DNA of 64,000 nt, taken from NCBI GenBank assembly GCA_028715965.1, contig JAQUQS010000006.1, positions 50,163-114,162 of the forward strand. The letters run 5' to 3'. This DNA is from Candidatus Omnitrophota bacterium (lineage in GTDB: Bacteria > Omnitrophota > Gorgyraeia > Tantalellales > Tantalellaceae). The number at the start of each line of letters is the position of its first letter. Position 1 is the stretch's first letter. Positions 4,209 to 44,886 of the stretch are shown here, in pieces. A program made the position numbers and the translations under genes. Under the pieces are notes generated by a model, which saw only the letters and a program-made list of their open reading frames with translations, had not been told where the DNA came from and ran no database searches.

Positions 4209-6529
4209 TGAAAAAGATGTTCGCAGCAATACTTGTGGTCTTGTCATTCCTTGTTGCCTTTTGTCTGCCATCCGCGGAACTCGCGCAAGCCCAGACCGGG
4301 AGCGCTAAAAAGATCTCGGATATCAAGATCAAAGGGAATAAAGCGGTAAGCACCGCGACCATAATGAACAAGTTGAAGATAAAACCAGGTGATGCTTTCG
4401 AAGAGCTGGCGCTTAACAACGAAATAAAAAGGTTGTACGCCACTGGATTCTTCAGCGATGTTTTCGTTGAAACGGATGACAGGGAAGAAGGCGTGCTCGT
4501 GATCTTCACCGTGATGGAAAAACCGACCATAAGCGGGATAAAGTTCAGCGGCAACGGGCGTATAGCCGCCGCGAAACTCATGAAAAAGATACAGGTAAAA
4601 GAAGGCGACCTTCTTGACTTCAATATGCTGGGCCAGGACGTCATCAACATCAGGACGAACTATACCGAGCAGGGGTATAGCAACGCGCAGGTAGATTACA
4701 GGATAGAGACGGATCCCGATACGGGCGCGGCCGTAGTGGTATTTGTCATAGATGAAGGTATGCCGTTCAAGATAAGGAAGATCGGTTTCGAAGGCAACAA
4801 AAGTGTTAAAACAAGCGAACTATTGAGTTACATGTCCACTAAAACGGCATGGTGGTTCATACGTAAGGGGGCGTTCGACGAGGACGTGTTCAAGGAAGAC
4901 CAGGAGAGGATACAGTCGGTATACCGCAGCAAGGGTTTTCTCGATGCCAAGGTGACAAGCCGGGTGGAATACTCGGAAGACGGGAAGAGCATATACCTGA
5001 CCGTTATCGTGGATGAGGGCAAACAGTATTATGTAGGCGACCTGAAGCTGGTGGGTACGCTCGCTTTTCCGGAAGAAGATGTAATGGCGACATTGAAGAT
5101 GAAGCCGGGAGACGCGTTCGATTATAAGCTCATAAAAGAGGATATGGATAACATAAGGGCCTTCTATTTCGACAGGGGATACATGAACGCGGAAGTGGAC
5201 CTGCAGAACAAGTATAATCCCGTTACCGACAAGATGGACCTTATCTACAAGATAACGGCGCACGAAGAGGTGTATGTCGGAAAGGTCAACGTATTGGGCA
5301 ATACGAAGACAAGGGATAAGGTCATACGCAGGGAGCTCAGGGTATATCCAGGAGAAATGTACAATGGTGAAAGACTAAAGACAAGTAAGGAGAGGATATA
5401 TAACCTGGGATTTTTCGAGGATGTTTACCTGGAGACCGTGCCTACGGACAAAAGTAACGTTAAGGACCTGGATATTACGGTGAAGGAGACCAAGACCGGC
5501 GAGCTTTCTTTCGGTGGCGGATTCAGCTCGGTCGACGCCTTCATTGGCTTTGCGCAGATACGGCAGAGGAATTTCGATATACTTAACTTCCCGAGCTTTA
5601 CCGGTGGTGGACAGGACCTTACCATAAGGGGGGAGATAGGCAGCACCAGGACCAATTATCTCCTTAGCTGGACGGACCCGTGGATATTCGATCTTCCTTA
5701 TCTTTTCGGGTTCGATCTCTACCGTACCGAATACGACAAATCAGGTCTTTCCGGGTATGACTATTACGAGAGGCGTACGGGGGGGTCTTTAAGGCTGGGG
5801 AAGGACATAACGGATAACCTGGCTACGGGACTCGTATATAACCTGGAAGAGGTCAAATTGACGGATATACCGGATGACGCCTCAGCGGATCTCCAGGCAG
5901 AAGCCGGGACCAACACCCTGAGCCGCGTTACCTGGAATCTTACTTATGATACCCGTGACAATAAATTCTCTCCGACAAAAGGTATCGTTACGGGTATGTC
6001 GCTCGAGAATGTCGGGGGTTTTATAGGCGGGGACAAGGATTTCGTCAAAGGAACGGTCTTCCTGACATATTATCGCACTATAATCGAAGAGGTGGTCCTC
6101 GAACTTAAGGGTCGCGGTGGTATGGCTGAGCCTTATGACGATACGGACAAGATACCGATATATGAAAGGTTCTTCGCGGGTGGCGCCACTACCATAAGAG
6201 GTTATAAACAAAGATCTGTTGGACCGCGGGACTCCAGGGACGGGGCTATCGCTATAGGAGGCGATTCTATGGTTATCGGTAACGCTGAACTCGCGTTCCC
6301 GCTGTATAAACAGCTTTTAAGGGGAGCTGTTTTCTATGATGTGGGCGCGGTACACACGAAAGCGGAAGATATCTTTGAAACATCGGGATATGTGATGGGC
6401 GCGGGCGTAGGAGTAAGGGTAAAAACGCCGATAGGTCCGGTAAAACTGGATTATGGTTATCCCTTAAGCGATAACCATGATGATAAGAAGGAAGGACAGT
6501 TCTATTTTAGTGTAAGCCATGGGTTCTGA
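4208..6529 (+). CDS. bamA: outer membrane protein assembly factor BamA
   Basis: A signal peptide is followed by five POTRA-like repeats and a C-terminal Omp85 beta-barrel that ends in an aromatic residue (..SHGF). Confidence 0.9.
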   Translation: MKKMFAAILVVLSFLVAFCLPSAELAQAQTGSAKKISDIKIKGNKAVSTATIMNKLKIKPGDAFEELALNNEIKRLYATGFFSDVFVETDDREEGVLVIFTVMEKPTISGIKFSGNGRIAAAKLMKKIQVKEGDLLDFNMLGQDVINIRTNYTEQGYSNAQVDYRIETDPDTGAAVVVFVIDEGMPFKIRKIGFEGNKSVKTSELLSYMSTKTAWWFIRKGAFDEDVFKEDQERIQSVYRSKGFLDAKVTSRVEYSEDGKSIYLTVIVDEGKQYYVGDLKLVGTLAFPEEDVMATLKMKPGDAFDYKLIKEDMDNIRAFYFDRGYMNAEVDLQNKYNPVTDKMDLIYKITAHEEVYVGKVNVLGNTKTRDKVIRRELRVYPGEMYNGERLKTSKERIYNLGFFEDVYLETVPTDKSNVKDLDITVKETKTGELSFGGGFSSVDAFIGFAQIRQRNFDILNFPSFTGGGQDLTIRGEIGSTRTNYLLSWTDPWIFDLPYLFGFDLYRTEYDKSGLSGYDYYERRTGGSLRLGKDITDNLATGLVYNLEEVKLTDIPDDASADLQAEAGTNTLSRVTWNLTYDTRDNKFSPTKGIVTGMSLENVGGFIGGDKDFVKGTVFLTYYRTIIEEVVLELKGRGGMAEPYDDTDKIPIYERFFAGGATTIRGYKQRSVGPRDSRDGAIAIGGDSMVIGNAELAFPLYKQLLRGAVFYDVGAVHTKAEDIFETSGYVMGAGVGVRVKTPIGPVKLDYGYPLSDNHDDKKEGQFYFSVSHGF

Positions 6530-6568
6530 TCCGAACGGAAGTGTTCTTAACAACGGAAGGAGAGAGAT

Positions 6569-7081
6569 ATGACGGGGCAGATGATAAAATATTGTGTGAA
6601 AGTAGTAACAGTAGTTACAGTTTTGGCTGTTTGCGCGGGGCCGTTAGCTTTCGCGGAAGGGAAAATAGGTTATGTCGATCTTAGAAAGGCTTTTTATGAA
6701 TATGAGAAAGCCAACTCACTTGACAAGCAGCTCACAGACCTTACGGAAAAACGCCAGAACGAGAGAAAGACCAAGATAGACGCGATCACCAAGCTGAGGG
6801 AAGAGGCCGAACTCCTGAGCCCGGAAGCAAAAAGCAAGAAACAGACCGAGATCGATCTCAAGTTGGTACAGCTTCAGGAATTTGATAGAGAGGCCAGGCA
6901 GGAACTTCTCACGAAAAAGAACGATATGTTCAAAGAGGTAATAACCGACATACAGAACGTAGTGGATGATTTCGGTAAAAAAGGCGACTATGATTATATC
7001 CTTGATTCAAGGAATATCATGTTCTCAAAGCCCGAATTCGATATGACGGACCAGGTCATAAAACAGCTTAACAAAAAGTGA
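6569..7081 (+). CDS. skp: periplasmic chaperone Skp (OmpH family)
   Basis: The product is about 170 aa with a signal peptide and a Lys/Glu-rich coiled-coil body. It sits immediately downstream of bamA, as in the conserved bamA-skp-lpx cluster. Confidence 0.8.
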   Translation: MTGQMIKYCVKVVTVVTVLAVCAGPLAFAEGKIGYVDLRKAFYEYEKANSLDKQLTDLTEKRQNERKTKIDAITKLREEAELLSPEAKSKKQTEIDLKLVQLQEFDREARQELLTKKNDMFKEVITDIQNVVDDFGKKGDYDYILDSRNIMFSKPEFDMTDQVIKQLNKK

Positions 7082-23104: not shown

Positions 23105-24394
23105 ATGATAAAAGTAAGGTTCGCTCCCAGTCCCACAGGTTTTCTGCATCTGGGTAGCGCGCGCACGGCTCTTTTTAACTGGCTTTACGCCCGCCGTACC
23201 GGGGGGACATATGTCCTGAGGATAGAGGATACGGATAAGGAGAGGTCAAAGGAAGAATTCCTCAACGAGATCCTGGAAGACCTGAAATGGCTGGGGCTGG
23301 ACTGGGACGGAGACCCGGTCTTTCAGAGTGACAGGTTCGACATATACAGGCAAAAAGCGGAAGGCCTTGTGGAGCAAGGTAAGGCATATATGGAAGGCAG
23401 CGCTATCATCTTTCGGGTGGAAAAAGGGCGGGATATAGAGATAGACGATATGATACATGGCAAGATAAAATTCAATACCGACGAGCTGAAGGACCAGGTA
23501 ATGATAAAATCCGACGGATCGCCGGCATATAATTTCTGCTGCGTGGTGGACGACTCCGAAATGGGGATCACCCATATCATACGTGGGGACGACCATATCT
23601 CCAATACGCCAAAACAGATGCTCTTTTATGAAGCGTTCGGCTGTGAGCCCCCCAGGTTCGGGCATATGCCGCTCATGATGGGCACGGATGGAGCCAAGCT
23701 TTCTAAAAGGCATGGCGGCGTATCTGTGGAGGAATACAGGACGGAAGGGTTCCTGCCGCAGGCGCTTATAAACTATCTCATGCTGCTTGGTTGGTCTCCC
23801 GGGGAAGAACGCGAAGTGCTTTCGCTCGGGGAAGCGATAGATATCTTTGATATTTCCGACATGACAGGGGTCCAGGCGAAGTTCGACGTCCAGAAACTGA
23901 GATGGTTGAACGGCGAATATATCATGAAACTTCCCCTTACGGAACTTAGTGGGCTCTTATCCGAGAGGGTAAAAAAGGCCGGGCTGGAGATATCCTCCAT
24001 CGGAGATGAGGGGTTCGCTAAACTGGTTGAGCTTTATCGCATGAGGATAAAGACATTGAGTGAGTTCGTGCCGCTGACAAAGTTCTTTTTCTCGGATGAG
24101 TTTGAGGTCGACGAAAAAGGATGGAAAAAATATCTGGAGGACGAAGGTAACCGTGATAATCTCAGGGAATTCTCCTCGAGGTTGCCCGGGCCAGACCAGT
24201 TCACGCATGATAATATAGAGGCGGTATGCCGGGCAATAGCTGAAGAAAGACAGCTCAAGGCGGCTCAGATAATACATCCTACCAGGATGGCTATAAGCGG
24301 TATTACCCAGGGAGCGGGGCTCTTCGAGATGATGGAGCTTCTTGGAAGGGAAAAGACCGTAGAACGCATGGAGAAAGCCGCCTCGGGACGATAA
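23105..24394 (+). CDS. gltX: glutamyl-tRNA synthetase (compact ~429-aa form)
   Basis: Class I HIGH (HLGSART) and KMSKS (KLSKRHG) motifs are present with the RFAPSPTGFLH N-terminus. GlnRS is encoded nearby, so this enzyme is presumably discriminating. Confidence 0.9.
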   Translation: MIKVRFAPSPTGFLHLGSARTALFNWLYARRTGGTYVLRIEDTDKERSKEEFLNEILEDLKWLGLDWDGDPVFQSDRFDIYRQKAEGLVEQGKAYMEGSAIIFRVEKGRDIEIDDMIHGKIKFNTDELKDQVMIKSDGSPAYNFCCVVDDSEMGITHIIRGDDHISNTPKQMLFYEAFGCEPPRFGHMPLMMGTDGAKLSKRHGGVSVEEYRTEGFLPQALINYLMLLGWSPGEEREVLSLGEAIDIFDISDMTGVQAKFDVQKLRWLNGEYIMKLPLTELSGLLSERVKKAGLEISSIGDEGFAKLVELYRMRIKTLSEFVPLTKFFFSDEFEVDEKGWKKYLEDEGNRDNLREFSSRLPGPDQFTHDNIEAVCRAIAEERQLKAAQIIHPTRMAISGITQGAGLFEMMELLGREKTVERMEKAASGR

Positions 24395-24466
24395 ATAGAA
24401 AAAAGGCTTTAAAAATAAGGGACTTGTAGTATAATAATTTTCCGGAATTCGCACGACAAAAACACC

Positions 24467-24584
24467 GCTGGGATGTAGCCGCATACCAGAGATCCCGCGG
24501 ATCACGGTATACGGCGCGTGTAATTGGTAACAGGACCCCTGTACCGTGATCACGAAGTGATCTCTGGTACAGGGCAGCTGACTC
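24467..24584 (+). pseudogene. degenerate 5' fragment of tRNA-Gln interrupted by two ~40-nt mutually complementary insertions
   Basis: Three segments are identical to the downstream tRNA-Gln: aacaccgctgggatgtag, tgtaattggtaaca and cagctgactc. They are separated by insertions at 24479-24518 and 24533-24574. The first insertion contains accagagatc and gatcacggta, and the second contains their reverse complements taccgtgatc and gatctctggt. There is no anticodon 3' half, T-arm or acceptor 3' strand. Confidence 0.6.
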
Positions 24585-24662
24585 CGTGTATAATAAATGC
24601 ATTTTTTGATAATGTCTCAAGTTGTAAAGCAAAATAAGTAAGTTATACATAAAAAACACCGC

Positions 24663-24737
24663 TGGGATGTAGTGTAATTGGTAACACAGCTGACTCTGGA
24701 TCAGCCGTTCCTGGTTCGAGTCCAGGCATCCCAGCCA
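24663..24737 (+). tRNA. tRNA-Gln (anticodon CTG), CCA encoded
   Basis: Manual fold gives acceptor TGGGATG/CATCCCA (U1:A72), discriminator G73, D-stem GTGT/ACAC, anticodon stem GCTGA/TCAGC with loop CTCTGGA (U33, anticodon CUG, A37), T-arm CCTGG-TTCGAGT-CCAGG and an encoded CCA. Confidence 0.85.
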
Positions 24738-24744
24738 TATATAA

Positions 24745-24770
24745 AAAAACCCTCTTTTGAGGGTTTTTTT
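24745..24770 (+). terminator. rho-independent terminator after tRNA-Gln
   Basis: aaaccctc tttt gagggttt is followed by a T7 run. Confidence 0.7.
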
Positions 24771-25084
24771 ATATGCCCGCGGAAGCGGGGGACGAGGGGT
24801 ATAAGATAAGAAATACCCCGAGTGACTGAGGACGCAATGTCCGAAGAAATGCCGCGAAGTCCCCTGAGCGGCCTGACCAGATAGCTTTTAACCCCTAACT
24901 GTTTACAGAATAAGTAGATGGGAGTACAATAACTGGAGTTGGGATAATAAGAAGTTATGATGTGTTAATGCCGTCCTACAAATGTATTGACAGCTTTACT
25001 GTTATGCTAACAGGAGAATGATATTATAGATTTTTCTGATTGGGGATAAAATGGTTATGAAGAGAAGAATGGTAGGAGGACGAA

Positions 25085-26065
25085 ATGGCTAAGCCTAGGG
25101 TTTTTATAAGTTCAACTTATTATGACATGAGGAATGTTAGGGCGGATTTGGAGAGATTTATTTTAGAACAAGGATATGAGCCCGTTTTGTTCGAGAGAGG
25201 GCATATTGCTTATGGTACGGAAGAGCGGGTGGAAGAAGATTGTTATAGGGAAATTAATACTTGCGACATATTAATAAATATCATTGGTGGTAAAATTGGG
25301 ACGCAGTCAAGAAGCACACAATATTCTATTTCACAAAATGAGCTAAAAGAAGCAATTAAGTTGGGAAAGCAGATATATATATTTGTAGAACGGCCAGTTC
25401 TAGCCGAATATAGTACCTTTATTGCAAATAAGGAAGTAGCGGGTTTCAAGGCAACTGCCGTGAATGATTTAAAGGTATATTCTTTTCTTGAAGAAATATT
25501 CGCACTTTCTGGAAAAAATCCAGTGCAGGGTTTTGAGGTTTCAGAAAACATTACCACTTTTCTCAGGGAACAGTGGGCAGGACTTTTTCAGGTATTACTG
25601 CAGGAACGTGCTAGGCAAAAGGAAGTAAATTTACTAGGCAGAATTGAAACGACTGCAGATACATTAGATAGGTTAGTAAAGTTTTTAACTGAAGAACGAA
25701 GTCAGGGCGACCAGGCCATTAAGGATATTCTTCTAAGCAATCACCCATTGTTCAAGTCTTTAAAGAAGCAACTTAACATTCCATATCGTATCTTTTTTGA
25801 AACACGCGATGAAATGGAAGCTTTGCTTGTAGCCAGAAAAACTAATCTAATTGAAGAGAAAGAGTGGGATGATGCAGAATATATAGAGTATTTGTGTGAA
25901 TGGTGGAAGAATACCACAAAAATTCTAAAGATAAAAGAAGATCTTTTTGACGAAGAAGGAAGGCTAAAAATATTTAAACCAGATGAGTGGGATGAAAGCG
26001 CCGTTATTTTGGAAGAAATAGAAAAAAATAATACTAGTGGAGAAGATTTAGAAGTTCCTTTTTAG
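25085..26065 (+). CDS. hypothetical protein with an N-terminal TIR-like (DUF4062-like) domain, an alpha-helical C-terminal domain, and a C-terminal SSB-tail-like EDLEVPF
   Basis: AGGAGG lies 7 nt upstream of the ATG. The N-terminus RVFISSTYYDMRNVRADLERFI resembles the VFISST..DM..R..L signature of DUF4062/TIR-like domains, and a conserved Glu sits in IYIFVERP. The C-terminal 170 aa are Glu/Lys-rich and helical, and the last residues are EVPF as in the host SSB. Confidence 0.6.
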   Translation: MAKPRVFISSTYYDMRNVRADLERFILEQGYEPVLFERGHIAYGTEERVEEDCYREINTCDILINIIGGKIGTQSRSTQYSISQNELKEAIKLGKQIYIFVERPVLAEYSTFIANKEVAGFKATAVNDLKVYSFLEEIFALSGKNPVQGFEVSENITTFLREQWAGLFQVLLQERARQKEVNLLGRIETTADTLDRLVKFLTEERSQGDQAIKDILLSNHPLFKSLKKQLNIPYRIFFETRDEMEALLVARKTNLIEEKEWDDAEYIEYLCEWWKNTTKILKIKEDLFDEEGRLKIFKPDEWDESAVILEEIEKNNTSGEDLEVPF

Positions 26066-26117
26066 CTATTACTTATGTTTATATGGTGAGCGCTTGGGTA
26101 AATTCCAGTTGGACAAG

Positions 26118-26128
26118 TCCCAGCCATA
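26118..26128 (+). repeat. direct repeat of tRNA-Gln 3' end (att-like right boundary of islet)
   Basis: This is an exact 11-nt match, TCCCAGCCATA, to tRNA-Gln positions 24727-24737. Confidence 0.55.
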
Positions 26129-26132
26129 AAAA

Positions 26133-26158
26133 ATACCCGCCTTTGGCGGGTTTTTTTA
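26133..26158 (+). terminator. rho-independent terminator downstream of islet CDS
   Basis: cccgcc tttg gcggg is followed by a T7 run. Confidence 0.7.
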
Positions 26159-26452
26159 TGGTCAAAGGCCTGTGGCCTTTGTCTGTTCCCGGCTCGGGTT
26201 TCCGGCTGGGAACAAGTTCCCGCCGCTAAACCTCACCGGTTCCAGCTGTGATGCCTGGGATCCTGCGCATCTCGTCAGCTCGGTGCTGGTACGATCAGGG
26301 GACAACTTAAGCTATGGTTGGGGACAGTTTAAGCGGGAGTTTGTACCCGGTACAAGCTTTTGGCGTAGCCAGTACTTATTTACTGAAAAACTCCGCTTCG
26401 TATGATAAAATATCACATCAACAATTGTTATAACAAGTTAGAGGAGAGGGAC

Positions 26453-28141
26453 ATGGCGGGCGAGGAAAGACCTGTGACGAATTTCATAAGAGAGATAATA
26501 GATGAAGACCTCAAGAGGGGAAAGAACGACGGACGCGTGCATACGCGGTTCCCGCCGGAACCCAACGGGTACCTCCATATAGGACACGCCAAATCCATAT
26601 GCCTTAATTTCGGCCTGGCAAAAGATTACAACGGCCTGTGCAATCTGCGTTTTGATGATACAAATCCTGAAAAAGAAGAGGTAGAATACGTGGATTCTAT
26701 AATGGAAGACGTCAGGTGGCTGGGATTCGACTGGGCCGACAGGATGTATTACGCGTCGGATTATTTCGACAAGTTATATGAATTCGCGGTCACGCTCATA
26801 AAGACAGGGAAAGCTTACGTATGTGACCTTAACGCCGAACAAATGAGGGAATACAGGGGGACATTGACCGCGCCCGGGAAGGAAAGCCCGTACAGGAAAA
26901 GGAGCGTTGAGGAGAACCTGGAACTGTTTGCCGGGATGAGGAACGGCGAGTTCGATGAGGGGGAAAAGGTCTTGAGAGCGAAAATAGACATGGCCTCTCC
27001 CAATGTCACCATGCGCGACCCGATAATATACCGCATAAAAAAAGCTAACCACCACCGGACGGCTGATAAATGGTGTATCTATCCCATGTATGATTTCACG
27101 CATTGTCTTTCAGATTCACTTGAGGGGATAACCCATTCCATATGTACGATGGAGTTCGAGAATAACCGTCCGCTGTATGACTGGTTCCTCGACCAGCTGG
27201 GTGTGCATCACCCCCAGCAGATCGAGTTCGCGAGGCTCAACCTGGGGCATACTGTGCTTAGCAAGAGAAAACTTCTTGAGCTTGTAACCGAAAAATATGT
27301 GGACGGCTGGGATGATCCGCGTATGCCCACCATTTCCGGGTTGCGCAGGCGGGGATATACCCCGGAAGCGATCAGGGGTTTCTGTGAAAAGATAGGGGTC
27401 GCTAAATTCAACAGTATCGTTGATATGGTGGTCCTGGAGAACAGCATAAGAGAAGATCTGAACAAAACGGCCCCGCGCGTCATGGCCGTACTCGATCCGC
27501 TCAGGGTGGTCATAACGAATTATCCAGAGGGTAAGTCCGAAGAGCTCGACGCGGTCAATAACCCTGAAGACCCTTCGATGGGAAGGAGAAAGGTCCCGTT
27601 CTCGAAGGTCCTTTATATAGAGAAAGACGATTTTCGCGAAGACCCGCCGAAAAAATTCTTCAGACTCGCGCCCGGCAGAGAGGTCAGGTTAAGGTACGCG
27701 TATTTCGTAAAATGTGAAGATGTCATCAGGGATGATAGTACGGGAGAGATCATAGAGATACATTGTACTTACGACCCGGAGACACGTGGCGGTGACGCGC
27801 CGGACGGACGTAAGGTAAAAGGAACTATACACTGGGTGTCCGCGGAACATGCTTTTAAGGCAAAAGTAAGGTTGTATGACCATCTTTTCTCTAAAAGGAA
27901 CCCCAATGAAGAGGAAGAAGGAAAGGGATACAAAGATAGCCTTAATCCCGATTCGCTTATTGTCCGGGACGGATGTTTCCTGGAACCGGCGCTTTCGATC
28001 GCTGTCCCCGGATCGCGATATCAATTCGAACGAACGGGATATTTCTGTGTGGATACAAAGGATTCGTCTCCCGGCGCCCCAGTTTTCAACAGAACGGTAA
28101 CATTAAGGGACTCGTGGGCGAAGATAGAAAAGACCCAGTAG
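26453..28141 (+). CDS. glnS: glutaminyl-tRNA synthetase
   Basis: The ATG at 26453 follows GGAGAGG. Class I motifs HIGH (HIGHAKS) and a KMSKS-like motif are present with the [15 protein letters not shown]-terminus. Length and the anticodon-binding beta-barrels fit GlnRS rather than GluRS. Confidence 0.9.
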
Positions 28142-28373: not shown

Positions 28374-31300
28374 ATGCATATGAAAAGAACATATCCTTTC
28401 TATCTGGTGTTTATCCTTGCGCTACTCTTTACCAGTACCTTTTCGGAAGCCTACACAGAGGCCTACTCAGGACAGGAACTTGGACCTCGTGACGATATTA
28501 TGACAAAAAAACGCGTTAACGTGCTTTTAGAGGAAAGGGAGACCCTTCTCGAGGAACAGAAAGGTCTTTTGGAATACATGGGGATAATGGAAGAAGAGAT
28601 AGCAAGGCTCAAGAAAGAGGTTTCGGAATCCAGGAAGGGTCTTATGTCGGAAGTGGAAAAGACCAAAAAAGAACTTAGGGAACGGCTAGGGCAGCTGGAA
28701 GAAGAGAATGATACACTTAGGCGGCAACGGCAGATACTTGCCCGTAAATTAGTCGACCTTAAGGATGTAACGAAAACCTGGGACGGAGACACTGGTCCTT
28801 CAGGGGTGGATGATGCCGGGCTAAAAGGGCTAAAGAACGAGAACGATGAACTTTTGAAGGAGAATAGTGATCTTCGCGGGCAGATAGAGAAAGAAAGAAA
28901 AAAGAACGACAGGATCGAAGAAGATCTTAAGTCCGAAAAAGAAAAGGTCTCAAGGATCCAGAGATCACTCGAGAACGGGGTTAGCCAGGCTGCCGCGATC
29001 ATTGATGAAAAAGACGCGGAAATAAGGGAGCTTAGGAAAGAAAGCACGATCCTGTCGGTCAGGATAAGGGAAGCGGAGAAAGAGAACCTGGACCTCAGGA
29101 ACTCTTTAGGGGACTCCAAGACGGGGGCCGGTGTGGAAGATACTGGCAGTAGGGAGGATATCGCGCCCGGTCTTGAGGAGAAGATAAAAGAGCTTCAAAC
29201 GGTAATAAAAAGCCTGGAAAGGAAAAACCTTTCTTTACGGGAAGAGAATTCCAGGCTGGGAAAGACAGCTGTAAAGACCGGAACGCCCCAGGGAGGGCAG
29301 GACGAAGGGGTCGAAGGATACGTGTCCGATATAAGGGAAAAGAACGCCATCATATCGGAGTTACGTGGGGAAAAAGAAATGCTGGGAAAAAGGTTATCTA
29401 TCGCGATCAACGCCAAGAAAGCCTTAGAGGAAGAGCTTGCCAAGAGCCGGGTATCGACCGAAGCGGATGTTGACGCGGCGCGTCAGGAGCTCAAGAGCTC
29501 ATATGACGATATGGTTGAGGGGCTTAAGAAAGAGAACAGTGGCCTTCGGTCCGAGTTGTCGTCATCTGCCGGCAGGGAAAAGCGTCTTGTCGATGAGCTG
29601 GAAAAGACAAGGACGGGGATGAAGGAGCTTCTGGCGGACAACCAGAGAAAAGACCTGGCGCTGAAGAAGGTCATGGATCACCGCGAAGACGTCGAGAAAA
29701 AGCACAAGGACCTCGAGCGAAAGAATATCATGCTTGAGACCGAGCTGAAGAACCTCAACGCGCTCCAGGCCACAGAAAAAGAAAAGGCCCGGGAAGAGAT
29801 AAGCGCTGAGTACGAGGGCAGGATCAAAAGCCTGGCGCGAGAAAAGAACAAGCTGATGTCAGGGCTTGCCGAGCTGGAGAAAGAGCTCTTGGACATGAAG
29901 GATCGAGAGAAAGACGTGGAAAATGACAGGGTAAAAGAGCGGGATGAAAGAAAAGAGATGATCCGTGTGTTGACCAAGAAATACGCCAAGCGGGAAAGGG
30001 CTATCCTGGATGAGCGTGACGCCATGAAGGAAAAGATGGATGCCGCGAAGAAAGAGCTTGCCGATATACGGAAAGAAAAAGACGCGATACTGTTAGACAA
30101 AGAAGCGGCTGAAAAGGACAGGCAGGTCGCGGTGGAAGAAGCCCAGCTTATACGCCAGCAGGTTTCCCGGCTAAAGGATGATCTTTTAGAAAAAGAGGAG
30201 ATCGACAAGAAAAAGGCTAATGATTTCTATGTGCGAAAAGCGGCACTTCTTGAGAACGAGAACAAGGTCCTCAGGGATAACGTGAAAGAGATCAAAGAGA
30301 ACATGGCAAAAAAAGATGAAAGGACCAAAGAACTGCTTTCCGGCGCGGATGACATGAAGGCAGAGCTTGAAAAGGTTTCGCGGGAAAAAAGAGCCCTTTT
30401 GGAAGAGATAGATACGCTTAAGGCTTCAATGGAAAAGATAATGTCCGAAAAGGACGGTACCTATGCTACGGTCGAAAGCCTGCAAGGGAAGATACTGGCG
30501 CTTGAAAAAGAGCGTGACGATATGGGGAAAGAACTCGAGGGCTTGAGAGCAAGGAACAGCGTGGATATAGACGCAAAGCTCAGGGAAGCTGAGGGGGTGA
30601 TCTCCGAAAAGCAGGAAAGCATAAATACGCTTCTCGCCGACATCAAAGAGAAACAGGAAGAGGCGGAGAGGCTTTCGGGGGAAAAAGACGCGCTGGTAGA
30701 GAAAATGAAGGAAACATTGAAGGAGAAATACCTGTTGGAGAACAAGGCCAGGGACATCCTGAAGGAAAAATATGTCCTGGAAGAGGAGCTCGCGGCAGTA
30801 AGGGCCGGCGCGGAAAAGACCGCTACGAATGTGGAGGAATTTTCCGAGAAGGCCGGTGAGCTTGGGCAGCAGAACGCCGTTCTATCACGGGAAGTCAGGG
30901 AGCTTGAGGGTAAATTGGACGATATCTCCCGGGAGTTGGAGATGACTGAACAGGAGAACGAGGGGCTCAATGCCGACATTAAGGAATACCAGGCGCAGAT
31001 AAACGGGTTCAGCGCGGAGAGAGAGAGATTGAACGCCCAGATAAGGGCGATCCGGGGGCAAGCGGTCACCCCGGCAGGCGGAGCCAACGAGTTCGAGTCG
31101 TATATGTCTAAAATGGATACGGTCGTAGCGGAACGTGTAGAGGCGGAGAGGAAACTTGCTCAAGAAGCCTTTGATCGTAAGATAGAGGCGTACAAGAAAG
31201 AGGTTGGAGCATTGAGGGCGCAGCTTGACGCCAAAGGAAAAGATAGCGATACACGTGTGGATGTAAAAGGGGATTACGAGAGGCAGATGAAGGAAAAAGA

Positions 31301-31802
31301 CGGCAAGATCAAGGATTACGAAGATGCCTTGAGCAAGGAATTGGCCACCGTACGGGTCCTACAACGCAAGCTGAATGATACCAGGAAAAAACTCGCTGAT
31401 CTCGGATCGTCATTTGAGGCTACGATAACGGATAAGCAGAACATAATAGACAGGACGGGGAAAGACCTTGCCGCCGCGCGCAGCCAGGAAAAGGACATAA
31501 AAGAAAAATACCAGAAGGTCATGAGGGATCTTTCGAGCGCTTTACAGGGTAAGTCCAGTCTGGAGAAAAAACTCAAAGCCTACGGATCGGAAATAGACAG
31601 GATGAAAAAGAAAATAAGATCAAAGGGAACATCGGACAGCCGGGAGCCTTCCGGAAAACTTGAACGTGAAGTGCGGGCGTTGCGGGACGAGAACTCCGAA
31701 CTGAAACAACGGCTTGATATATTGCAGAAAGAGATAGAAGAGCTAAGGATGATGAACGCTAGGTCCCCCGTGCCGGTACATGTGGCCGGTGCCTCGAATT
31801 AA
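28374..31802 (+). CDS. giant secreted coiled-coil protein (1142 aa), function unknown
   Basis: The signal peptide is MKRTYPFYLVFILALLFTSTFSEA. More than 1000 aa follow of heptad-pattern Glu/Lys/Leu-rich sequence with no globular domain, and the C-terminus is Pro/Val-rich. Confidence 0.7.
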   Translation: MHMKRTYPFYLVFILALLFTSTFSEAYTEAYSGQELGPRDDIMTKKRVNVLLEERETLLEEQKGLLEYMGIMEEEIARLKKEVSESRKGLMSEVEKTKKELRERLGQLEEENDTLRRQRQILARKLVDLKDVTKTWDGDTGPSGVDDAGLKGLKNENDELLKENSDLRGQIEKERKKNDRIEEDLKSEKEKVSRIQRSLENGVSQAAAIIDEKDAEIRELRKESTILSVRIREAEKENLDLRNSLGDSKTGAGVEDTGSREDIAPGLEEKIKELQTVIKSLERKNLSLREENSRLGKTAVKTGTPQGGQDEGVEGYVSDIREKNAIISELRGEKEMLGKRLSIAINAKKALEEELAKSRVSTEADVDAARQELKSSYDDMVEGLKKENSGLRSELSSSAGREKRLVDELEKTRTGMKELLADNQRKDLALKKVMDHREDVEKKHKDLERKNIMLETELKNLNALQATEKEKAREEISAEYEGRIKSLAREKNKLMSGLAELEKELLDMKDREKDVENDRVKERDERKEMIRVLTKKYAKRERAILDERDAMKEKMDAAKKELADIRKEKDAILLDKEAAEKDRQVAVEEAQLIRQQVSRLKDDLLEKEEIDKKKANDFYVRKAALLENENKVLRDNVKEIKENMAKKDERTKELLSGADDMKAELEKVSREKRALLEEIDTLKASMEKIMSEKDGTYATVESLQGKILALEKERDDMGKELEGLRARNSVDIDAKLREAEGVISEKQESINTLLADIKEKQEEAERLSGEKDALVEKMKETLKEKYLLENKARDILKEKYVLEEELAAVRAGAEKTATNVEEFSEKAGELGQQNAVLSREVRELEGKLDDISRELEMTEQENEGLNADIKEYQAQINGFSAERERLNAQIRAIRGQAVTPAGGANEFESYMSKMDTVVAERVEAERKLAQEAFDRKIEAYKKEVGALRAQLDAKGKDSDTRVDVKGDYERQMKEKDGKIKDYEDALSKELATVRVLQRKLNDTRKKLADLGSSFEATITDKQNIIDRTGKDLAAARSQEKDIKEKYQKVMRDLSSALQGKSSLEKKLKAYGSEIDRMKKKIRSKGTSDSREPSGKLEREVRALRDENSELKQRLDILQKEIEELRMMNARSPVPVHVAGASN

Positions 31803-31830
31803 TTAGCTAAAAAACAGATGACGGGAAAAT

Positions 31831-34800
31831 ATGATGGTATGTAAGAGAATGGTACGTTCGAGTTTGCCGATCGCTTTCCTTGTGTTATCACAGGCGGTGC
31901 GGCCCATATATGCTGATGGAGAGGCAGCCACGCCTATCACGATCACGGCGAAAAGTAATAACGCCGTGATGTTCGGTAATAGCGGGAGGGATGAAAGCGG
32001 TATCGCCGATGGGCAGACAAGCGCTATCAGGCAGAAAGAGACGGAGATCGAGATATTAAAGGCGCAGCTTGAAGAAGCCAACGAAAGGCTGGCCACGAAA
32101 GAAAGATCTACCGGAGACAGCACGTCCAGATTGCGTAACCTGGTGGCGCGAATAGATGCCCTGGAAAAAGCTTCCAGGGAAAAGATCGCGTCATACGAGA
32201 AAGAGATAGCGGAGCTTAAAGCCGGGTCGGTCGAGAAGAACATATACCAGGGTACGGCCGGGGAGAAGGACCGGATAGAAATAAACAAACTCAAAACGGA
32301 GCTGGCCGGCGCGAAAGACGCTTTATCCCGTAAAATAGAAGAAGTCGCGGCCATGGACCGCGATCTCTCCCGCGTTAAGGAAGAAAAAAATAGCGCGCAA
32401 GCTGAAGCGGCATCTTTCAGGAACGCGCTATCGGAAAAGAGCCGTGAGTTAAGTTCCGTGCTGGAGGCGCATGCATCCCTGAAAAAAGAGCTGGATACCG
32501 CCATGGCGGGGATGAACGGGATCAAGGGGACAGAGGAAGATGGTGTTAAGGACGAAGAGGCTTTGTCCGTGCTGGAAAGCAAGGTACGGGACGGGGAAGA
32601 GACCATATCGTCCTTGAAAGAAGAGATAGTTTCCAGTAATATCAGGGCGGAAAAATATCTCGGGGATATCGAAGCGGCGAAAAAAGAGATAGAACGGTAT
32701 AAGGAGGACATCAGCAGGTTGTTGGCGGAGAACGCAAAATACCAGGAGAGGATAGACGCGTTGGACAAGGAAAGAACGGAAAAAGATATCGCGTCCGATG
32801 AGGCTATCTTGAAGGTCGAAGCGGCGGAACGGGAAGCGTCAGCGTACAAGGAAGATCTGTCCGCGGCCCAGGCGGAGGTGCGGAGCAATAAGGAGAGGAT
32901 AGACGCCCTCAAAAATGAAATAGCGGCCGGCGTGGCGAACATTAAGAAAAAAGAGGATATTATTAATGGGTTGACCGCTGAGATCGATTCCGAAAGAAAA
33001 AAGGCCCTTACTTACGCCGGACAAACGAAGGAGTATGAGGCAAAAATAAAGCGTATGGAGGAAGACCTGGCTCGCATGATCGACGCATCGGGAAAAAAGG
33101 ACGAGGAAATGACGTCACTCAGGGCTGAGATCGATGACTTGAGGAAGATCGAGGAACAAAAAGAGACCACGCGTGATAGTTTGAGCGGCGAGCTGGAGAT
33201 AAAGAAAAAGGAATTAGCTAATTTCGTAGAGGGGTTCGAGGCTTATAAAGAGAAGTATGCCGCGGAGGTCATCGATAGAGAAAAAGAGATAGAAAACCTC
33301 AGGAATGATCTTGCTGCCGGCAAGTCCAAGTTGGAAGACGCGAGGAAGGAGCTTGACAAGGAGAGAGGCGCCCTAAGGAACAAGGACGCGCGCATAAAGG
33401 AATTGGAGGGAAAGTTATCCTCCATGGAAGCCTTGGCCGAGGCAAAGTCCGCGGAAATGGAAAAGGGCCTGTCAGAACACCTGGAGACGATAAAGGTCAG
33501 GAACGAGGAAATAGGTAAGCTTAACGAAAAGATCGGGTCTTTTCAGGAGCAATTCAAGACCTTTTCCGACGCCAAGGATTCTGAAGTGGCTTTAAAAGAC
33601 AGCGAGATAGAGAGGCTAACGTCGGAAGTGAGGGGCCTGAAGGATGTCGCGATATCTAAGGATAAAGAGATCAACGCCCTCAAAAAGAACATGTCCGGGC
33701 TTGAGGGCAGGATAAAAGAAAATTCCATGAATTATGCTAAAGAACTGGACGCTTTAAAGGTGTCGATCGAAACAATAAGCAAAGAGAAAGAGGATATGGC
33801 CGCGGAGCTCAAGTCCAAGGCCGACGAGGTCAAGACTCTCACGGAAAGCCAGGAGGAAATGAACGTTTCTCTCGAGGCATACAAAAAAGACGTGACTTCC
33901 GGGGTGGCGGAAATAAGCGAGCTAAAGGCGCGTTTGGGGCGAACGGATGACGAGATGAAAACGCATCTTGCGGAATATGAGAAAGAGATCGCGGCGCTTG
34001 AGGCAGAGCTTGAGGAAAAGAACGCTAAAATGATCGAACTGGATTCGAGCCTGAGTTCGTATAAAGAGCAGTTCATAAGTTTTTCAGAAGAAAAAGACAA
34101 GGAGATAGCCGCCCAGAAAGACAAGATAACGTCACTTGAGAAGGAGAACGCGGTATTCTCAAAGGAGCGCATGGACCTCAAAGACAAAGAGTCGCGCCAG
34201 GCCGGCAGGATAAATGAGCTCGAGCGGGAAACGGGCCGGATAAAAGATAAGGCCGCGAAAATAATCTCAAAGTATAAGGAGGAAGTAGAAACGCTTGAGG
34301 CCAGATCGTTGTCGGTCCAGTCCCAACTTACGCAGGCACAACAGGAAGCGGAAGCGCTAAGGGATGAAAAGGCGAGAAAAGAACTTGAAAAAGACGAAAG
34401 GACCGCGCAATTCCAGTATATGTCGGCCAGTCTCAAGCGTGCTATGCGCAAGACCATAGACGCGGGTGAAGTGGCAGTTTCGGCCTCGGATAAGGGGGTT
34501 AAAGTATCGGTCCTTAGTGATGTCCTGTTCGGGCCGGGAAGTGCCGATATCAGTTCCGGGGGGAAAAGTGTCTTATCGGATATTGGTAACGCCCTCCAGA
34601 AAAGTATGTCCGGAAATAAGATCGTTATCGAGGGGCATACGGATAACGTGCCTATACGCAGGTCCGGATGGAAGTCGAATTGGGACCTGTCCAGCCAGAG
34701 AGCGATATCCGTATTGCATTATTTTACTGATGACCTTGGTATGACCCCGGATGATATGCGGGTGACCGGATATGGACAATATCGCCCGATAGCGGATAAT

Positions 34801-34869
34801 TCGACCGAGGAAGGGCGCAACCGGAACCGAAGGGTCGAGATACTGGTGCTCCCGGTGGCGGAAAACTAA
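31831..34869 (+). CDS. giant secreted coiled-coil protein (1012 aa) with C-terminal OmpA/MotB-type peptidoglycan-binding domain
   Basis: A signal peptide ending at the IYA-DGE cleavage region is followed by about 850 aa of coiled-coil. The C-terminal domain (VLFGPGSADISSGGKSVLSDIGNAL..IVIEGHTDNVPI..SNWDLSSQRAISVLHYF..TGYGQYRPIADNSTEEGRNRNRRVEILV) matches OmpA_C. Confidence 0.8.
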   Translation: MMVCKRMVRSSLPIAFLVLSQAVRPIYADGEAATPITITAKSNNAVMFGNSGRDESGIADGQTSAIRQKETEIEILKAQLEEANERLATKERSTGDSTSRLRNLVARIDALEKASREKIASYEKEIAELKAGSVEKNIYQGTAGEKDRIEINKLKTELAGAKDALSRKIEEVAAMDRDLSRVKEEKNSAQAEAASFRNALSEKSRELSSVLEAHASLKKELDTAMAGMNGIKGTEEDGVKDEEALSVLESKVRDGEETISSLKEEIVSSNIRAEKYLGDIEAAKKEIERYKEDISRLLAENAKYQERIDALDKERTEKDIASDEAILKVEAAEREASAYKEDLSAAQAEVRSNKERIDALKNEIAAGVANIKKKEDIINGLTAEIDSERKKALTYAGQTKEYEAKIKRMEEDLARMIDASGKKDEEMTSLRAEIDDLRKIEEQKETTRDSLSGELEIKKKELANFVEGFEAYKEKYAAEVIDREKEIENLRNDLAAGKSKLEDARKELDKERGALRNKDARIKELEGKLSSMEALAEAKSAEMEKGLSEHLETIKVRNEEIGKLNEKIGSFQEQFKTFSDAKDSEVALKDSEIERLTSEVRGLKDVAISKDKEINALKKNMSGLEGRIKENSMNYAKELDALKVSIETISKEKEDMAAELKSKADEVKTLTESQEEMNVSLEAYKKDVTSGVAEISELKARLGRTDDEMKTHLAEYEKEIAALEAELEEKNAKMIELDSSLSSYKEQFISFSEEKDKEIAAQKDKITSLEKENAVFSKERMDLKDKESRQAGRINELERETGRIKDKAAKIISKYKEEVETLEARSLSVQSQLTQAQQEAEALRDEKARKELEKDERTAQFQYMSASLKRAMRKTIDAGEVAVSASDKGVKVSVLSDVLFGPGSADISSGGKSVLSDIGNALQKSMSGNKIVIEGHTDNVPIRRSGWKSNWDLSSQRAISVLHYFTDDLGMTPDDMRVTGYGQYRPIADNSTEEGRNRNRRVEILVLPVAEN

Positions 34870-44862: not shown

Positions 44863-44886
44863 AAACCTGTCCTTTGGACAGGCTGT
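44863..44886. terminator. bidirectional-looking terminator hairpin (cctgtcc tttg gacagg flanked by A-run and T-run)
   Basis: aaaaaaacctgtcctttggacaggctgtttttt is read as a hairpin followed by T6 on both strands. It ends copy 1 of the tRNA-Leu trailer repeat. Confidence 0.6.

What the first reader, a model, noticed from the sequence alone, without database searches (positions are those of the whole stretch)
24738..26160. Integrase-less 1.4-kb AT-rich islet at tRNA-Gln bounded by a duplicated tRNA 3' end
The last 11 nt of tRNA-Gln (TCCCAGCCATA) recur 1.39 kb downstream at 26118-26128. Each copy is followed by an A-run and a rho-independent terminator whose hairpin sequences differ (accctcttttgagggt versus cccgcctttggcggg). 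The interior is visibly AT-rich, about 38-40% GC against about 50% in gltX and glnS. It carries one well-formed gene with its own AGGAGG RBS. This is the classical attL/attR signature of a tRNA-targeting integrative element, but with no integrase, as if a single-gene cargo was stranded after decay of the element.
Basis: seen in the sequence. Interest (0 to 1): 0.75.

Follow-up and report, generated by a model that had tools for sequence, protein, structure and literature searches.

The report
Integrase-less tRNA-Gln islet carrying defence gene
A 1.4-kb piece of foreign, AT-rich DNA sits just after a glutamine tRNA gene in an uncultured Omnitrophota bacterium, is bracketed by a repeated copy of the tRNA's end, has no mobility gene of its own, and carries one gene of a recently described family of NAD-destroying anti-phage proteins.

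Summary
TCCCAGCCATA occurs exactly twice in the window, at 24729-24739 (the last 9 nt of tRNA-Gln plus TA) and at 26118-26128. About 0.05 matches are expected by chance. Each copy is followed by an A-run and a different perfect terminator hairpin. GC is 0.38 between the copies and about 0.50 outside; GC3 is 0.30 against 0.58-0.60.

The only gene is a 326-aa DUF4062 protein. Three 2026 preprints show this domain to be a TIR-like NADase that acts in single-gene abortive-infection defence (Swarozyc, Evangelion, NIR). The conserved F7, E86 and EQW162-164 motifs are present. The C-terminal domain matches no solved fold.

No close relative exists, so no true empty site was found. In 15 loci from many phyla gltX and glnS lie 48-273 nt apart with no such gene.

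About 13% of homologous loci are also bounded by locus-specific 44-200-nt direct repeats without a recombinase. Two of these repeats start in a tRNA T-loop or anticodon arm.

I read the islet as an att-bounded, integrase-less (CIME-like) defence islet. Insertion is well supported. Decay of a larger element is not shown. It is a new member of known kinds.

The parts
23105..24394 (+). gltX (glutamyl-tRNA synthetase), the upstream housekeeping flank
   Evidence: Pfam tRNA-synt_1c and Anticodon_2 on the called gene. GC 0.508, GC3 0.605.
24458..24590 (+). Partial upstream copy of the tRNA-Gln leader and 5' half, reaching the anticodon loop. It is interrupted by two mutually complementary insertions that form a long hairpin.
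   Evidence: A 21-nt exact repeat, AAAAACACCGCTGGGATGTAG, lies at 24458-24478 and 24652-24672. MFE is -57.2 kcal/mol, z -4.16. There is no Rfam match. The element is unique in the window. A promoter-like site lies at 24408-24435.
24663..24737 (+). tRNA-Gln(CTG), the intact target gene
   Evidence: ARAGORN. Rfam tRNA, 66.3 bits.
24729..24772 (+). Left direct repeat (attL-like). An exact 11-nt core at 24729-24739 is followed by an imperfect match through the terminator.
24747..24775 (.). Bidirectional intrinsic terminator after the tRNA: AAACCCTC-tttt-GAGGGTTT plus a T-run
   Evidence: inverted repeat I3, 16 nt, 100% complementary.
24776..24890 (.). GC-rich (0.565), hairpin-rich left arm of the islet, function unknown
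   Evidence: Composition. No Pfam hit for any open frame. No copy elsewhere in the window.
24902..24930 (+). Promoter-like site for the cargo gene (TTTACA-17-TACAAT)
   Evidence: Consensus scan, 10 of 12 matches. This is a prediction only.
25085..26065 (+). Cargo gene: a 326-aa DUF4062 (NIR, TIR-like NADase) protein with a helical stalk and an unassigned C-terminal AUX domain. The RBS AGGAGG lies at 25074-25079.
26118..26159 (+). Right direct repeat (attR-like). An exact 11-nt core at 26118-26128 holds the displaced 9-nt tRNA 3' end, followed by a terminator.
   Evidence: No tRNA similarity lies to its left.
26135..26158 (.). Bidirectional intrinsic terminator (ACCCGCC-ttt-GGCGGGT plus a T-run). 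It now ends the cargo gene's transcript.
26160..26452 (+). Hairpin-rich glnS leader at host-like GC, with a promoter-like site at 26379-26411
   Evidence: No Rfam family above chance.
26453..28141 (+). glnS (glutaminyl-tRNA synthetase), the downstream housekeeping flank
   Evidence: Identical to the NCBI protein called in GCA_028710465.1.

Best explanation
The segment from about 24740 to 26128 is a horizontally acquired genomic islet, inserted at the 3' end of tRNA-Gln in the gltX-glnS spacer of an Omnitrophota genome.

**How it got there (inferred).** A tyrosine-integrase-type site-specific recombination crossed over in the last 9 nt of the tRNA, the 'asymmetric 3' end' sublocation.
- The incoming DNA supplied a replacement 3' end and a terminator, which form the attL side.
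- The original 3' end and its terminator were displaced 1.39 kb downstream, which form the attR side.
- No recombinase remains between the sites. The islet is now an att-bounded, integrase-less element of the CIME or genomic-islet type. It is immobile unless a recombinase is supplied in trans.

**What it carries.** The single cargo gene has its own promoter and RBS and encodes a DUF4062 protein.
- By homology to Swarozyc, Evangelion and NIR proteins, it most likely sits auto-inhibited as an oligomer.
- It most likely senses a phage-derived trigger through its C-terminal AUX domain.
- It then most likely hydrolyses NAD+ through the TIR-like N-terminal domain, with E86 as the catalytic glutamate. 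This aborts infection of the cell.

**Shown:** the repeat, its sharp edge, the composition, the domain, the fold and motifs, and the absence of a recombinase.

**Inferred:** that an integrase made the junctions, NADase activity, the defence role and the trigger.
For: **Repeat and composition**
- The exact 11-mer occurs only twice, with 0.05 expected.
- Its left boundary is sharp.
- GC is 0.38 against 0.50 and GC3 is 0.30 against 0.58-0.60.

**Gene family**
- The family has 910 homologues at 50-70% identity in unrelated phyla.
- It is AT-rich relative to its hosts in L085 (0.44 vs 0.61), L088 Pseudomonas (0.40 vs 0.60) and the prophage contigs.

**Synteny**
- gltX and glnS are adjacent, with 48-273 nt spacers and no DUF4062 gene, in 15 of 81 loci from many phyla.

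**Analogous islets**
- In L143 the repeat is the last 24 nt of tRNA-Gly, from the T-loop, plus 84 nt (91% identity).
- In L150, tRNA-Thr is followed by two single-gene islets of about 1.5 kb. Each ends in a copy of about 48 nt running from the anticodon arm to CCA.
- The three repeat start points match the three tDNA sublocations described for integrases (10.1101/2020.11.02.365908).
- The regenerated gene plus a displaced fragment is the standard island signature (PMC4383910).
- Att-bounded elements without an integrase are a defined class, CIME (PMC5704250).

**Cargo**
- PF13271 match, TIR and NDT fold, motifs.
- Defence and NADase activity shown for relatives.
- Relatives occur as morons in a P2-like prophage and next to a CI-like repressor and primase.
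Against: - No empty site was found in a close relative. The nearest GlnS is 77-78% identical.
- There is no integrase or integrase fragment in or beside the islet. Recombinase involvement therefore rests on the junction geometry alone.
- Outside the 11-nt core, the repeat similarity is partly what any two A-run/hairpin/T-run terminators share.
- The GC drop begins about 115 nt inside the left repeat.
- The protein has no PADLOC hit. It matches KpSwz only over about 100 residues. The naive alignment puts Q84, not a glutamate, opposite KpSwz E97. E86 aligns instead with the Evangelion-type E-Y glutamate.
- No activity was tested for this lineage.
Confidence: 0.58

Rival explanations
1. The islet is a minimal cassette that never carried its own recombinase. 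On this view, DUF4062 and other small defence islets move as repeat-bounded units. They loop out as circles holding one repeat copy. They then re-enter a homologous target by host recombination (Campbell-type) or through any resident integrase acting in trans. This produces locus-specific direct repeats.
For: - 8 of 60 non-redundant homologue loci have tight flanking repeats of 44-200 nt at 73-91% identity, spaced 1333-1696 nt. Ordinary genes of similar size give 3 of 149 (Fisher p about 0.002).
- The repeats and the arms are unrelated between loci.
- Several repeats extend into non-conserved flank. L143 has 84 nt beyond the tRNA. L171 has 200 nt spanning a gene end plus spacer. L085 has 57 nt of a gene's 3' end.
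- Larger repeat-bounded islets also lack recombinases: L098 (R-M system plus the gene), L111 (HD and ThsB-TIR), L116, and L163 (GmrSD).
- No integrase fragment lies in the window's arms.
Against: - The exact identity in the window is only 11 nt, which is too short for efficient RecA exchange by established knowledge.
- The tRNA-linked repeats start at classical integrase sublocations.
- The model does not explain how the first duplication arose.
- The window itself prompted the survey, which is an ascertainment bias. One positive locus, L170, is repeat-rich.
Confidence: 0.2
2. The second 11-mer is the last remnant of a former second tRNA-Gln gene (a tandem paralogue) that was destroyed. It is not an att duplication made by the insertion.
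For: tRNA-Gln genes are linked to gltX or glnS in other lineages (L002, L022, L023, L034). Isoacceptors share acceptor stems, which is established knowledge. The locus already holds a partial 5' copy of the tRNA at 24458-24590.
Against: There is no detectable T-arm or anticodon-arm similarity upstream of the 11-mer (local-alignment p 0.94, anchored p 0.09). The copy ends in the same 2 non-tRNA bases (TA) and a similarly built terminator. That is expected for a displaced fragment of this gene, not for a paralogue.
Confidence: 0.07
3. The repeat is a coincidence and the gene is a long-resident native gene. Two ordinary terminators happen to follow a short shared word.
For: Eleven nucleotides is short. 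The terminators share generic architecture. The gene is intact and has its own expression signals.
Against: - 0.05 matches are expected in the whole window, and 0 of 100 shuffles reach two.
- The repeat brackets exactly the region of deviant GC3.
- No homologue lies at this position in 81 GlnS loci.
- The same gene is repeat-bounded in seven other unrelated loci.
Confidence: 0.04

Closest known systems
tDNA-targeted genomic islands and islets, and CIMEs (cis-mobilizable elements: attL/attR retained, integration genes lost); also the degenerate tycheposon remnants flanked by partial tRNAs
   Same: The tRNA gene is regenerated and a displaced 3' fragment lies at the far end. Composition is foreign. 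The repeat starts at a recognised tDNA sublocation. No integrase lies inside. L150 shows a tandem arrangement like accretion.
   Different: - It is only 1.4 kb with a single gene.
- No trace of a decayed integrase or of transfer genes remains.
- The repeat continues imperfectly into the terminator.
- CIMEs are defined by descent from ICEs or IMEs in Firmicutes, and that descent is not shown here.
- The same single cargo recurs in repeat-bounded islets at unrelated targets.
Evangelion (Eva01 and related lineages): single-gene DUF4062 core plus AUX anti-phage systems (bioRxiv 10.64898/2026.06.25.731849)
   Same: It is a single gene with an N-terminal DUF4062 core, an aromatic residue near the N-terminus (F7 here, F11 in Eva01), a glutamate in the S-x-T/S-x-x-E motif (E86 here, E87 in Eva01) and a Q/W/E motif (EQW162-164 here, W162 in Eva01), followed by a divergent AUX. 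It is 27% identical over residues 3-198 to an Enterococcus plasmid DUF4062 protein.
   Different: - It is chromosomal in an uncultured Omnitrophota, not on a plasmid.
- It has no close plasmid or phage relative in the two collections searched.
- The AUX domain is unrelated and matches no solved fold.
- The Eva01 sequence itself was not available for comparison.
- Activity is untested.
Swarozyc (KpSwz, PDB 10wc/11cq/11cv): a portal-activated DUF4062 NADase (bioRxiv 10.64898/2026.05.01.722283)
   Same: It has the same length (326 aa) and the same layout: a TIR-like domain, a helical stalk and a C-terminal auxiliary domain. The family profile matches KpSwz at E 5.9e-5.
   Different: Only residues 4-103 align. 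The catalytic glutamate is offset by two positions in the sequence alignment. No similarity was detected in the stalk or AUX, so a portal trigger cannot be assumed.
Prophage and satellite defence 'morons' and hotspots
   Same: Relatives of the gene sit as AT-rich single-gene insertions inside a P2-like prophage, between the baseplate/tail-fibre genes and the tail-completion genes. Others lie next to a CI-like repressor and primase.
   Different: The window holds no phage genes around the islet. Its flanks are aminoacyl-tRNA synthetase genes.

Membership tests
tDNA-integrated genomic island (Islander-type signature) | An intact tRNA gene at one end | tested here: met
   tRNA-Gln(CTG) at 24663-24737, Rfam 66.3 bits.
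tDNA-integrated genomic island (Islander-type signature) | A displaced fragment of the same tDNA's 3' end, in direct orientation, at the other end | tested here: met
   An exact 11-mer holding the last 9 nt of the tRNA lies at 26118-26128. 0.05 matches are expected by chance. Its inner edge is sharp. The fragment is short.
tDNA-integrated genomic island (Islander-type signature) | A tyrosine integrase gene inside the island | tested here: not met
   The only ORF with a family match is DUF4062. The left arm's open frames have no Pfam hit.
tDNA-integrated genomic island (Islander-type signature) | An empty site in related genomes | tested here: inconclusive
   No relative is closer than 77-78% GlnS identity. 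At deep level, gltX and glnS are adjacent without the gene in 15 loci. Those loci also lack the tRNA.
CIME (cis-mobilizable element) | attL and attR are retained while integration and transfer genes are absent | tested here: met
   Definition from PMC5704250.
CIME (cis-mobilizable element) | Derived by decay of an ICE or IME, and mobilisable by accretion with an incoming element | not testable with these tools
   No relatives with an intact element were found. L150 shows tandem islets at one tRNA, which is compatible with accretion but comes from another organism.
DUF4062 / NIR TIR-like NADase domain | A Pfam PF13271 match above the gathering score | tested here: met
   62.1 bits against a cut-off of 24.7, covering profile positions 1-82 of 82.
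DUF4062 / NIR TIR-like NADase domain | A TIR- or nucleoside-deoxyribosyltransferase-like alpha/beta fold | tested here: met
   AF2 model with pLDDT 77. Foldseek probability is about 1.0 for NDT (2a0k), RPS4 TIR, SARM1 TIR, ThsB and DNPH1. E-values are modest, 5e-4 to 1e-2.
DUF4062 / NIR TIR-like NADase domain | A conserved catalytic glutamate | tested here: inconclusive
   E86 is invariant in 26 family members. It aligns with the E of the 'LEY' motif in an Enterococcus DUF4062 protein, which matches the Evangelion E-Y description. In the HMMER alignments to KpSwz, the KpSwz glutamate taken to be E97 lies opposite Q84. No structural superposition on KpSwz was possible, because that entry is absent from the fold library.
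DUF4062 / NIR TIR-like NADase domain | NAD+ hydrolysis and phage defence dependent on that glutamate | not testable with these tools
   Shown only for KpSwz, PsAvs2, Vulcan, Vesta and Eva01 in the preprints.
Swarozyc | An auxiliary (stalk plus C-terminal) region homologous to that of KpSwz | tested here: not met
   The family profile aligns only residues 4-103 with KpSwz chain 10wc_A.
Evangelion | A single-gene DUF4062 core with F, E-Y and Q/W/E motifs plus a required AUX region | tested here: inconclusive
   The single-gene layout and the F7, E86 and EQW162-164 motifs are present. The pair is E-L, not E-Y. AUX is present but is unrelated to any sequence I could compare. Eva01 itself was not available. 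PADLOC 2023 predates the family.

The most novel reading that the evidence does not exclude
Single-gene and few-gene defence islets such as this one may be a distinct class of recombinase-less mobile cassette. Each would be bounded by a 45-370-nt duplication of whatever target it entered: tRNA 3' ends, 3' ends of housekeeping genes, or intergenic spacers. They would spread between lineages as circles, using resident integrases or host recombination in trans. That would explain how solitary defence genes come to sit between housekeeping genes with no mobility gene in sight.
Probability: 0.2. Interest if true: 0.7.

Novelty: new member of a known kind. Interest (0 to 1): 0.42.

Why it matters
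- It places a DUF4062 NADase defence gene, with a previously unseen sensor domain, in the little-studied and mostly uncultured Omnitrophota. This extends a family that was recognised experimentally only in 2026.
- It is a clean, minimal example of how a solitary defence gene can sit between two aminoacyl-tRNA synthetase genes with att-like junctions but no recombinase.
- The wider survey suggests that about one in eight loci of this family share that architecture. If this reflects a real trans-mobilised cassette mechanism, it bears on the open question of how single-gene defence systems move.
- Island finders that require an integrase, such as Islander-type filters, would miss these islets systematically.

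Tried and rejected
1. **Empty-site search.**
   - A genome-contig scan with GlnS returned 80 loci, none closer than 73% identity.
   - A 5.8-billion-protein search found nothing above 78% except the MAG itself.
   - The top hit, P0121 (832 aa), is an internally duplicated GlnS on a different organism's contig, not a variant of this locus.
2. **PADLOC** gave no hit. The library predates the family.
3. **Rfam** on 24000-26700 gave nothing beyond the tRNA. The sub-threshold RNAI, isrK and SpF41 hits are terminator or tRNA look-alikes.
4. **Integrase remnants in the left arm:** none. The ORFs beside the window's other tRNAs are YchF, an AAA ATPase and a ROK protein, not integrases.
5. **Shared att or arm motif across repeat-bounded islets:** none. 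The best cross-locus score is 28, against a mean of 14.
6. **Decayed second tRNA** upstream of the right 11-mer: not supported.
8. **Close plasmid or phage relatives:** none. Only hits at 24-33% identity to the core.
9. **Copies of the pseudo-tRNA hairpin or the GC-rich arm elsewhere in the window:** none.
Full report
**Source and anatomy.**
The window is part of contig JAQTUB010000005.1 of a Candidatus Omnitrophica MAG, GCA_028710465.1. Two short-read assemblies from sister samples carry the same locus. The order of features on the + strand is:
- gltX, 23105-24394
- a partial copy of the tRNA-Gln leader and 5' half, 24458-24590
- tRNA-Gln(CTG), 24663-24737
- a terminator
- an AT-rich stretch holding one ORF, 25085-26065
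- a second terminator
- a 290-nt leader, then glnS, 26453-28141

**Check of the observation.**
TCCCAGCCATA occurs exactly twice in the 64 kb on either strand, at 24729-24739 and 26118-26128. Shuffles give 0.05 matches on average and never two. The word is the last 9 nt of the tRNA, including CCA, plus TA.

To the right of the word both copies continue with an A-run, a perfect G+C hairpin and a T-run. The hairpins differ: AAACCCTC/GAGGGTTT and ACCCGCC/GGCGGGT. Overall 37 of 45 aligned positions agree. Some of this agreement is simply how bidirectional terminators look in this genome, because the unrelated terminator at 44866 has the same plan.

To the left of the second copy nothing resembles the tRNA (local p 0.94, anchored p 0.09). 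The repeat therefore has a sharp inner edge at tRNA position about 67.

GC is 0.379 between the repeats, against 0.49 for the window. The gene's GC3 is 0.303, against 0.58-0.61 in gltX, glnS and the other neighbours. The first 115 nt after the left terminator are GC-rich (0.565) and full of hairpins, so the compositional break is not exactly at the repeat. The description is confirmed, with these small corrections.

**The cargo.**
The 326-aa product matches Pfam DUF4062 over the whole model (E 5.6e-17). It has 910 homologues of about 320 aa at 50-70% identity. These occur in Pseudomonas, Spongiibacter, Phycisphaeraceae and many metagenomes, which is a patchy spread.

Three 2026 preprints establish DUF4062 as a TIR-like NADase used in abortive-infection defence.
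- Swarozyc: KpSwz is 326 aa, is activated by the phage portal, has catalytic E97 and needs its auxiliary domain.
- Evangelion: Eva01 is a single gene. F11, E87 and W162 and the AUX region are each required. NAD+ falls on infection.
- NIR: the domain acts as an effector in Avs proteins and in the Vulcan and Vesta systems.

In an alignment of 26 family members, E86 is invariant and F7 and E162-Q163-W164 are invariant or nearly so.

The AlphaFold model (pLDDT 77) has three parts: an N-terminal beta-alpha domain, a 50-residue helix, and a compact alpha+beta C-terminal domain. Foldseek matches the N-terminal domain to nucleoside 2-deoxyribosyltransferases, DNPH1, plant and SARM1 TIR domains and ThsB.

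A family profile finds KpSwz in the PDB at E 5.9e-5, but only over residues 4-103. The protein is 27% identical over residues 3-198 to a 392-aa DUF4062 protein on Enterococcus plasmid pXD5. There E86 aligns with the glutamate of an L-E-Y motif, as described for Evangelion. In the KpSwz alignment the glutamate lies two residues earlier, opposite Q84. I could not superpose structures, because KpSwz is not in the fold library.

I conclude that the cargo is a new lineage of the single-gene DUF4062-plus-AUX defence proteins. It is closest in core motifs to Evangelion, and its sensor domain is uncharacterised.

**Is it an insertion?**
No close relative exists. The best GlnS matches among 185,579 species genomes and 5.8 billion proteins are 73-78% identical. 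The classical empty-site test therefore cannot be made.

At deeper level, a gltX homologue lies directly upstream of glnS, on the same strand, in 15 of 81 GlnS loci. These come from Deltaproteobacteria, Acidobacteriota, Nitrospirota, Chlorobiaceae, Bacteroidota and others. The spacers are 48-273 nt and none of the loci contains a DUF4062 gene. In the window the spacer is 2058 nt.

The nearest Omnitrophota locus, L001, has a 734-nt spacer. It holds two small ORFs that look by eye like a toxin-antitoxin pair. The spacer therefore accepts accessory genes in this phylum.

Homologues of the cargo are AT-rich relative to very different hosts: 0.44 against 0.61 in L085, 0.40 against 0.60 in Pseudomonas L088, and 0.32-0.38 against 0.51-0.56 in several prophage contigs. 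They sit as solitary genes:
- after nrdAB
- after rplK
- beside a pyruvate-dehydrogenase-type E1 gene
- inside a P2-like prophage
- beside a CI-like repressor

Foreign origin of the islet is therefore well supported.

**How were the junctions made?**
A regenerated tDNA plus a displaced 3' fragment is the accepted mark of integrase-mediated insertion (PMC4383910). Repeats are known to start at three sublocations: the anticodon loop, the T-loop and the asymmetric 3' end (10.1101/2020.11.02.365908). The window's repeat starts 9 nt from the 3' end.

I looked for the same pattern around homologues. Of 60 non-redundant loci with at least 150 nt on both sides, 8 have a significant direct repeat tightly bracketing the gene. 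The repeats are 44-200 nt at 73-91% identity and are spaced 1333-1696 nt. Ordinary 250-400-aa genes scanned the same way give 3 of 149 (Fisher p about 0.002).
- In L143 the repeat is the last 24 nt of tRNA-Gly(CCC), from the T-loop, plus 84 nt of downstream flank that includes a terminator.
- In L150, tRNA-Thr(CGT) is followed by two islets of about 1.5 kb. The first carries a zinc-ribbon protein and the second the DUF4062 gene. Each ends in a copy of about 48 nt running from the anticodon arm to CCA. The two copies also share about 25 nt of non-tRNA sequence on their element side, as expected for tandem insertions by related elements.
- In L085 the repeat is 57 nt of the 3' coding end of the neighbouring E1 gene.
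- In L171 the repeat is 200 nt spanning a gene end and the spacer.

None of these islets contains a recombinase. Neither do four larger repeat-bounded islets that add a restriction-modification pair, GmrSD, or HD and ThsB-TIR proteins to the DUF4062 gene. The repeats and the non-coding arms are unrelated between loci. The window's arms hold no integrase remnant.

**Interpretation.**
The tRNA-linked cases, including the window, have the geometry expected of tyrosine-integrase products. I take that as the most likely origin of these junctions. The islet is best described as an att-bounded, integrase-less islet. CIME is the nearest named class (PMC5704250). Degenerate tycheposon remnants flanked by partial tRNAs are a parallel.

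But eight independent loci retain exactly one gene between tight repeats, with no recombinase fragments. That fits poorly with repeated random decay. It leaves room for cassettes that rely on recombinases or host recombination in trans. I give that reading about 0.2.

Against a purely homology-driven route in the window, the exact identity is only 11 nt. Two other rivals are disfavoured. These are that the second word is the stump of a paralogous tRNA-Gln, and that it is chance.

**Likely function.**
By homology, the protein would form auto-inhibited oligomers through the TIR-like domain and stalk. It would be released by a phage-derived trigger bound by the AUX domain. [quoted passage not shown]

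The gene has a promoter-like site (24902-24930) and a strong RBS, and it ends at the displaced tRNA terminator. None of this was tested for this lineage, and the trigger cannot be inferred.

**Verdict.**
The islet is a tDNA islet without an integrase. The cargo is a new lineage of a defence family described in 2026. The recurrent repeat-bounded, recombinase-less architecture across the family is the part worth following up.

Noticed in passing
window 24458-24590: This is a partial copy of the tRNA-Gln leader plus 5' half. It includes a 21-nt exact repeat of 24652-24672 and then the D-arm and anticodon-stem pieces, and it stops in the anticodon loop. It is split by two insertions of about 40 nt that are reverse complements of each other and fold into a long hairpin (MFE -57.2 kcal/mol, z -4.2). 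A promoter-like site precedes it at 24408-24435. It has no Rfam match and no other copy in the window. It could be a displaced 5' fragment from an upstream-integrating element, or a tRNA-derived structured RNA.
   Followed up: partly
L150 1-3350 (OBLU010056155.1): tRNA-Thr(CGT) is followed by two tandem single-gene islets of about 1.5 kb. The first carries a zinc-ribbon membrane protein and the second the DUF4062 gene. Each ends in a copy of about 48 nt of the tRNA 3' half, and the two copies share element-side sequence. There is no integrase on the contig.
   Followed up: partly
L143 118-224 and 1532-1639; L085 6790-6846 and 8145-8201; L171 443-644 and 2097-2289; L101, L146, L170: Homologues of the cargo gene in unrelated metagenome contigs are bracketed by locus-specific direct repeats of 52-200 nt at 73-91% identity, spaced 1.33-1.70 kb, with no recombinase between them. 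The repeats duplicate a tRNA-Gly 3' end plus flank, the 3' end of an E1 dehydrogenase gene, or a gene end plus spacer.
   Followed up: partly
L098 1001-5660; L111 60-4303; L116 650-4539; L163 467-3734: These are larger (3-4.3 kb) repeat-bounded islets without recombinases. They combine the DUF4062 gene with an Eco57I-like methylase plus a BsuBI/PstI endonuclease, with GmrSD, with HD and ThsB-TIR proteins, or with an NDT-like protein and an HNH-repeat protein.
   Followed up: partly
L001 4995-5728 (Omnitrophota MAG ELA295): The gltX-glnS spacer of the nearest Omnitrophota relative is 734 nt. It holds two small overlapping-signal ORFs that look by eye like a BrnT/BrnA-type toxin-antitoxin pair. 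No family search was run on them. Most other phyla have a 48-273 nt spacer at this position.
   Followed up: no
L084 3074-5572 (protein P0121): This is an 832-aa 'GlnS' with an exact internal duplication of about 270 residues, on a 6.5-kb ENA scaffold that also has two tandem gltX-like genes. It is probably an assembly artefact. It scored above the self-hit in the protein search.
   Followed up: partly
L179 and L186 (IMG/VR prophage contigs), around 5200-7000: The DUF4062 homologue and a 269-aa ORF of unknown function are inserted in a P2-like prophage, between the baseplate/tail-fibre genes and the tail-completion/head genes. Their GC is 0.35, against 0.54 for the contig.
   Followed up: partly
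window 24776-24890: This is a GC-rich (0.565) hairpin-rich 115-nt segment at the left end of the otherwise AT-rich islet. It contains CCCGC-GGAA-GCGGG and GGGGTAT...ATACCCC. It has no coding signal, no Rfam match and no repeat elsewhere. Its role is unknown.
   Followed up: partly
window 26160-26452: The glnS leader of about 290 nt contains several stable hairpins, including GGTCAAAGGCC...GGCCTTTG and GTTCCCGGC...GGCTGGGAAC. No Rfam family matches above chance. It may be an uncharacterised regulatory leader.
   Followed up: no
window 28374-34869 and 49525-56193: Two very long coiled-coil ORFs of 1142 and 1012 aa lie directly after glnS, and the second has an OmpA domain. A 2222-aa ORF lies further on. 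None was examined.
   Followed up: no
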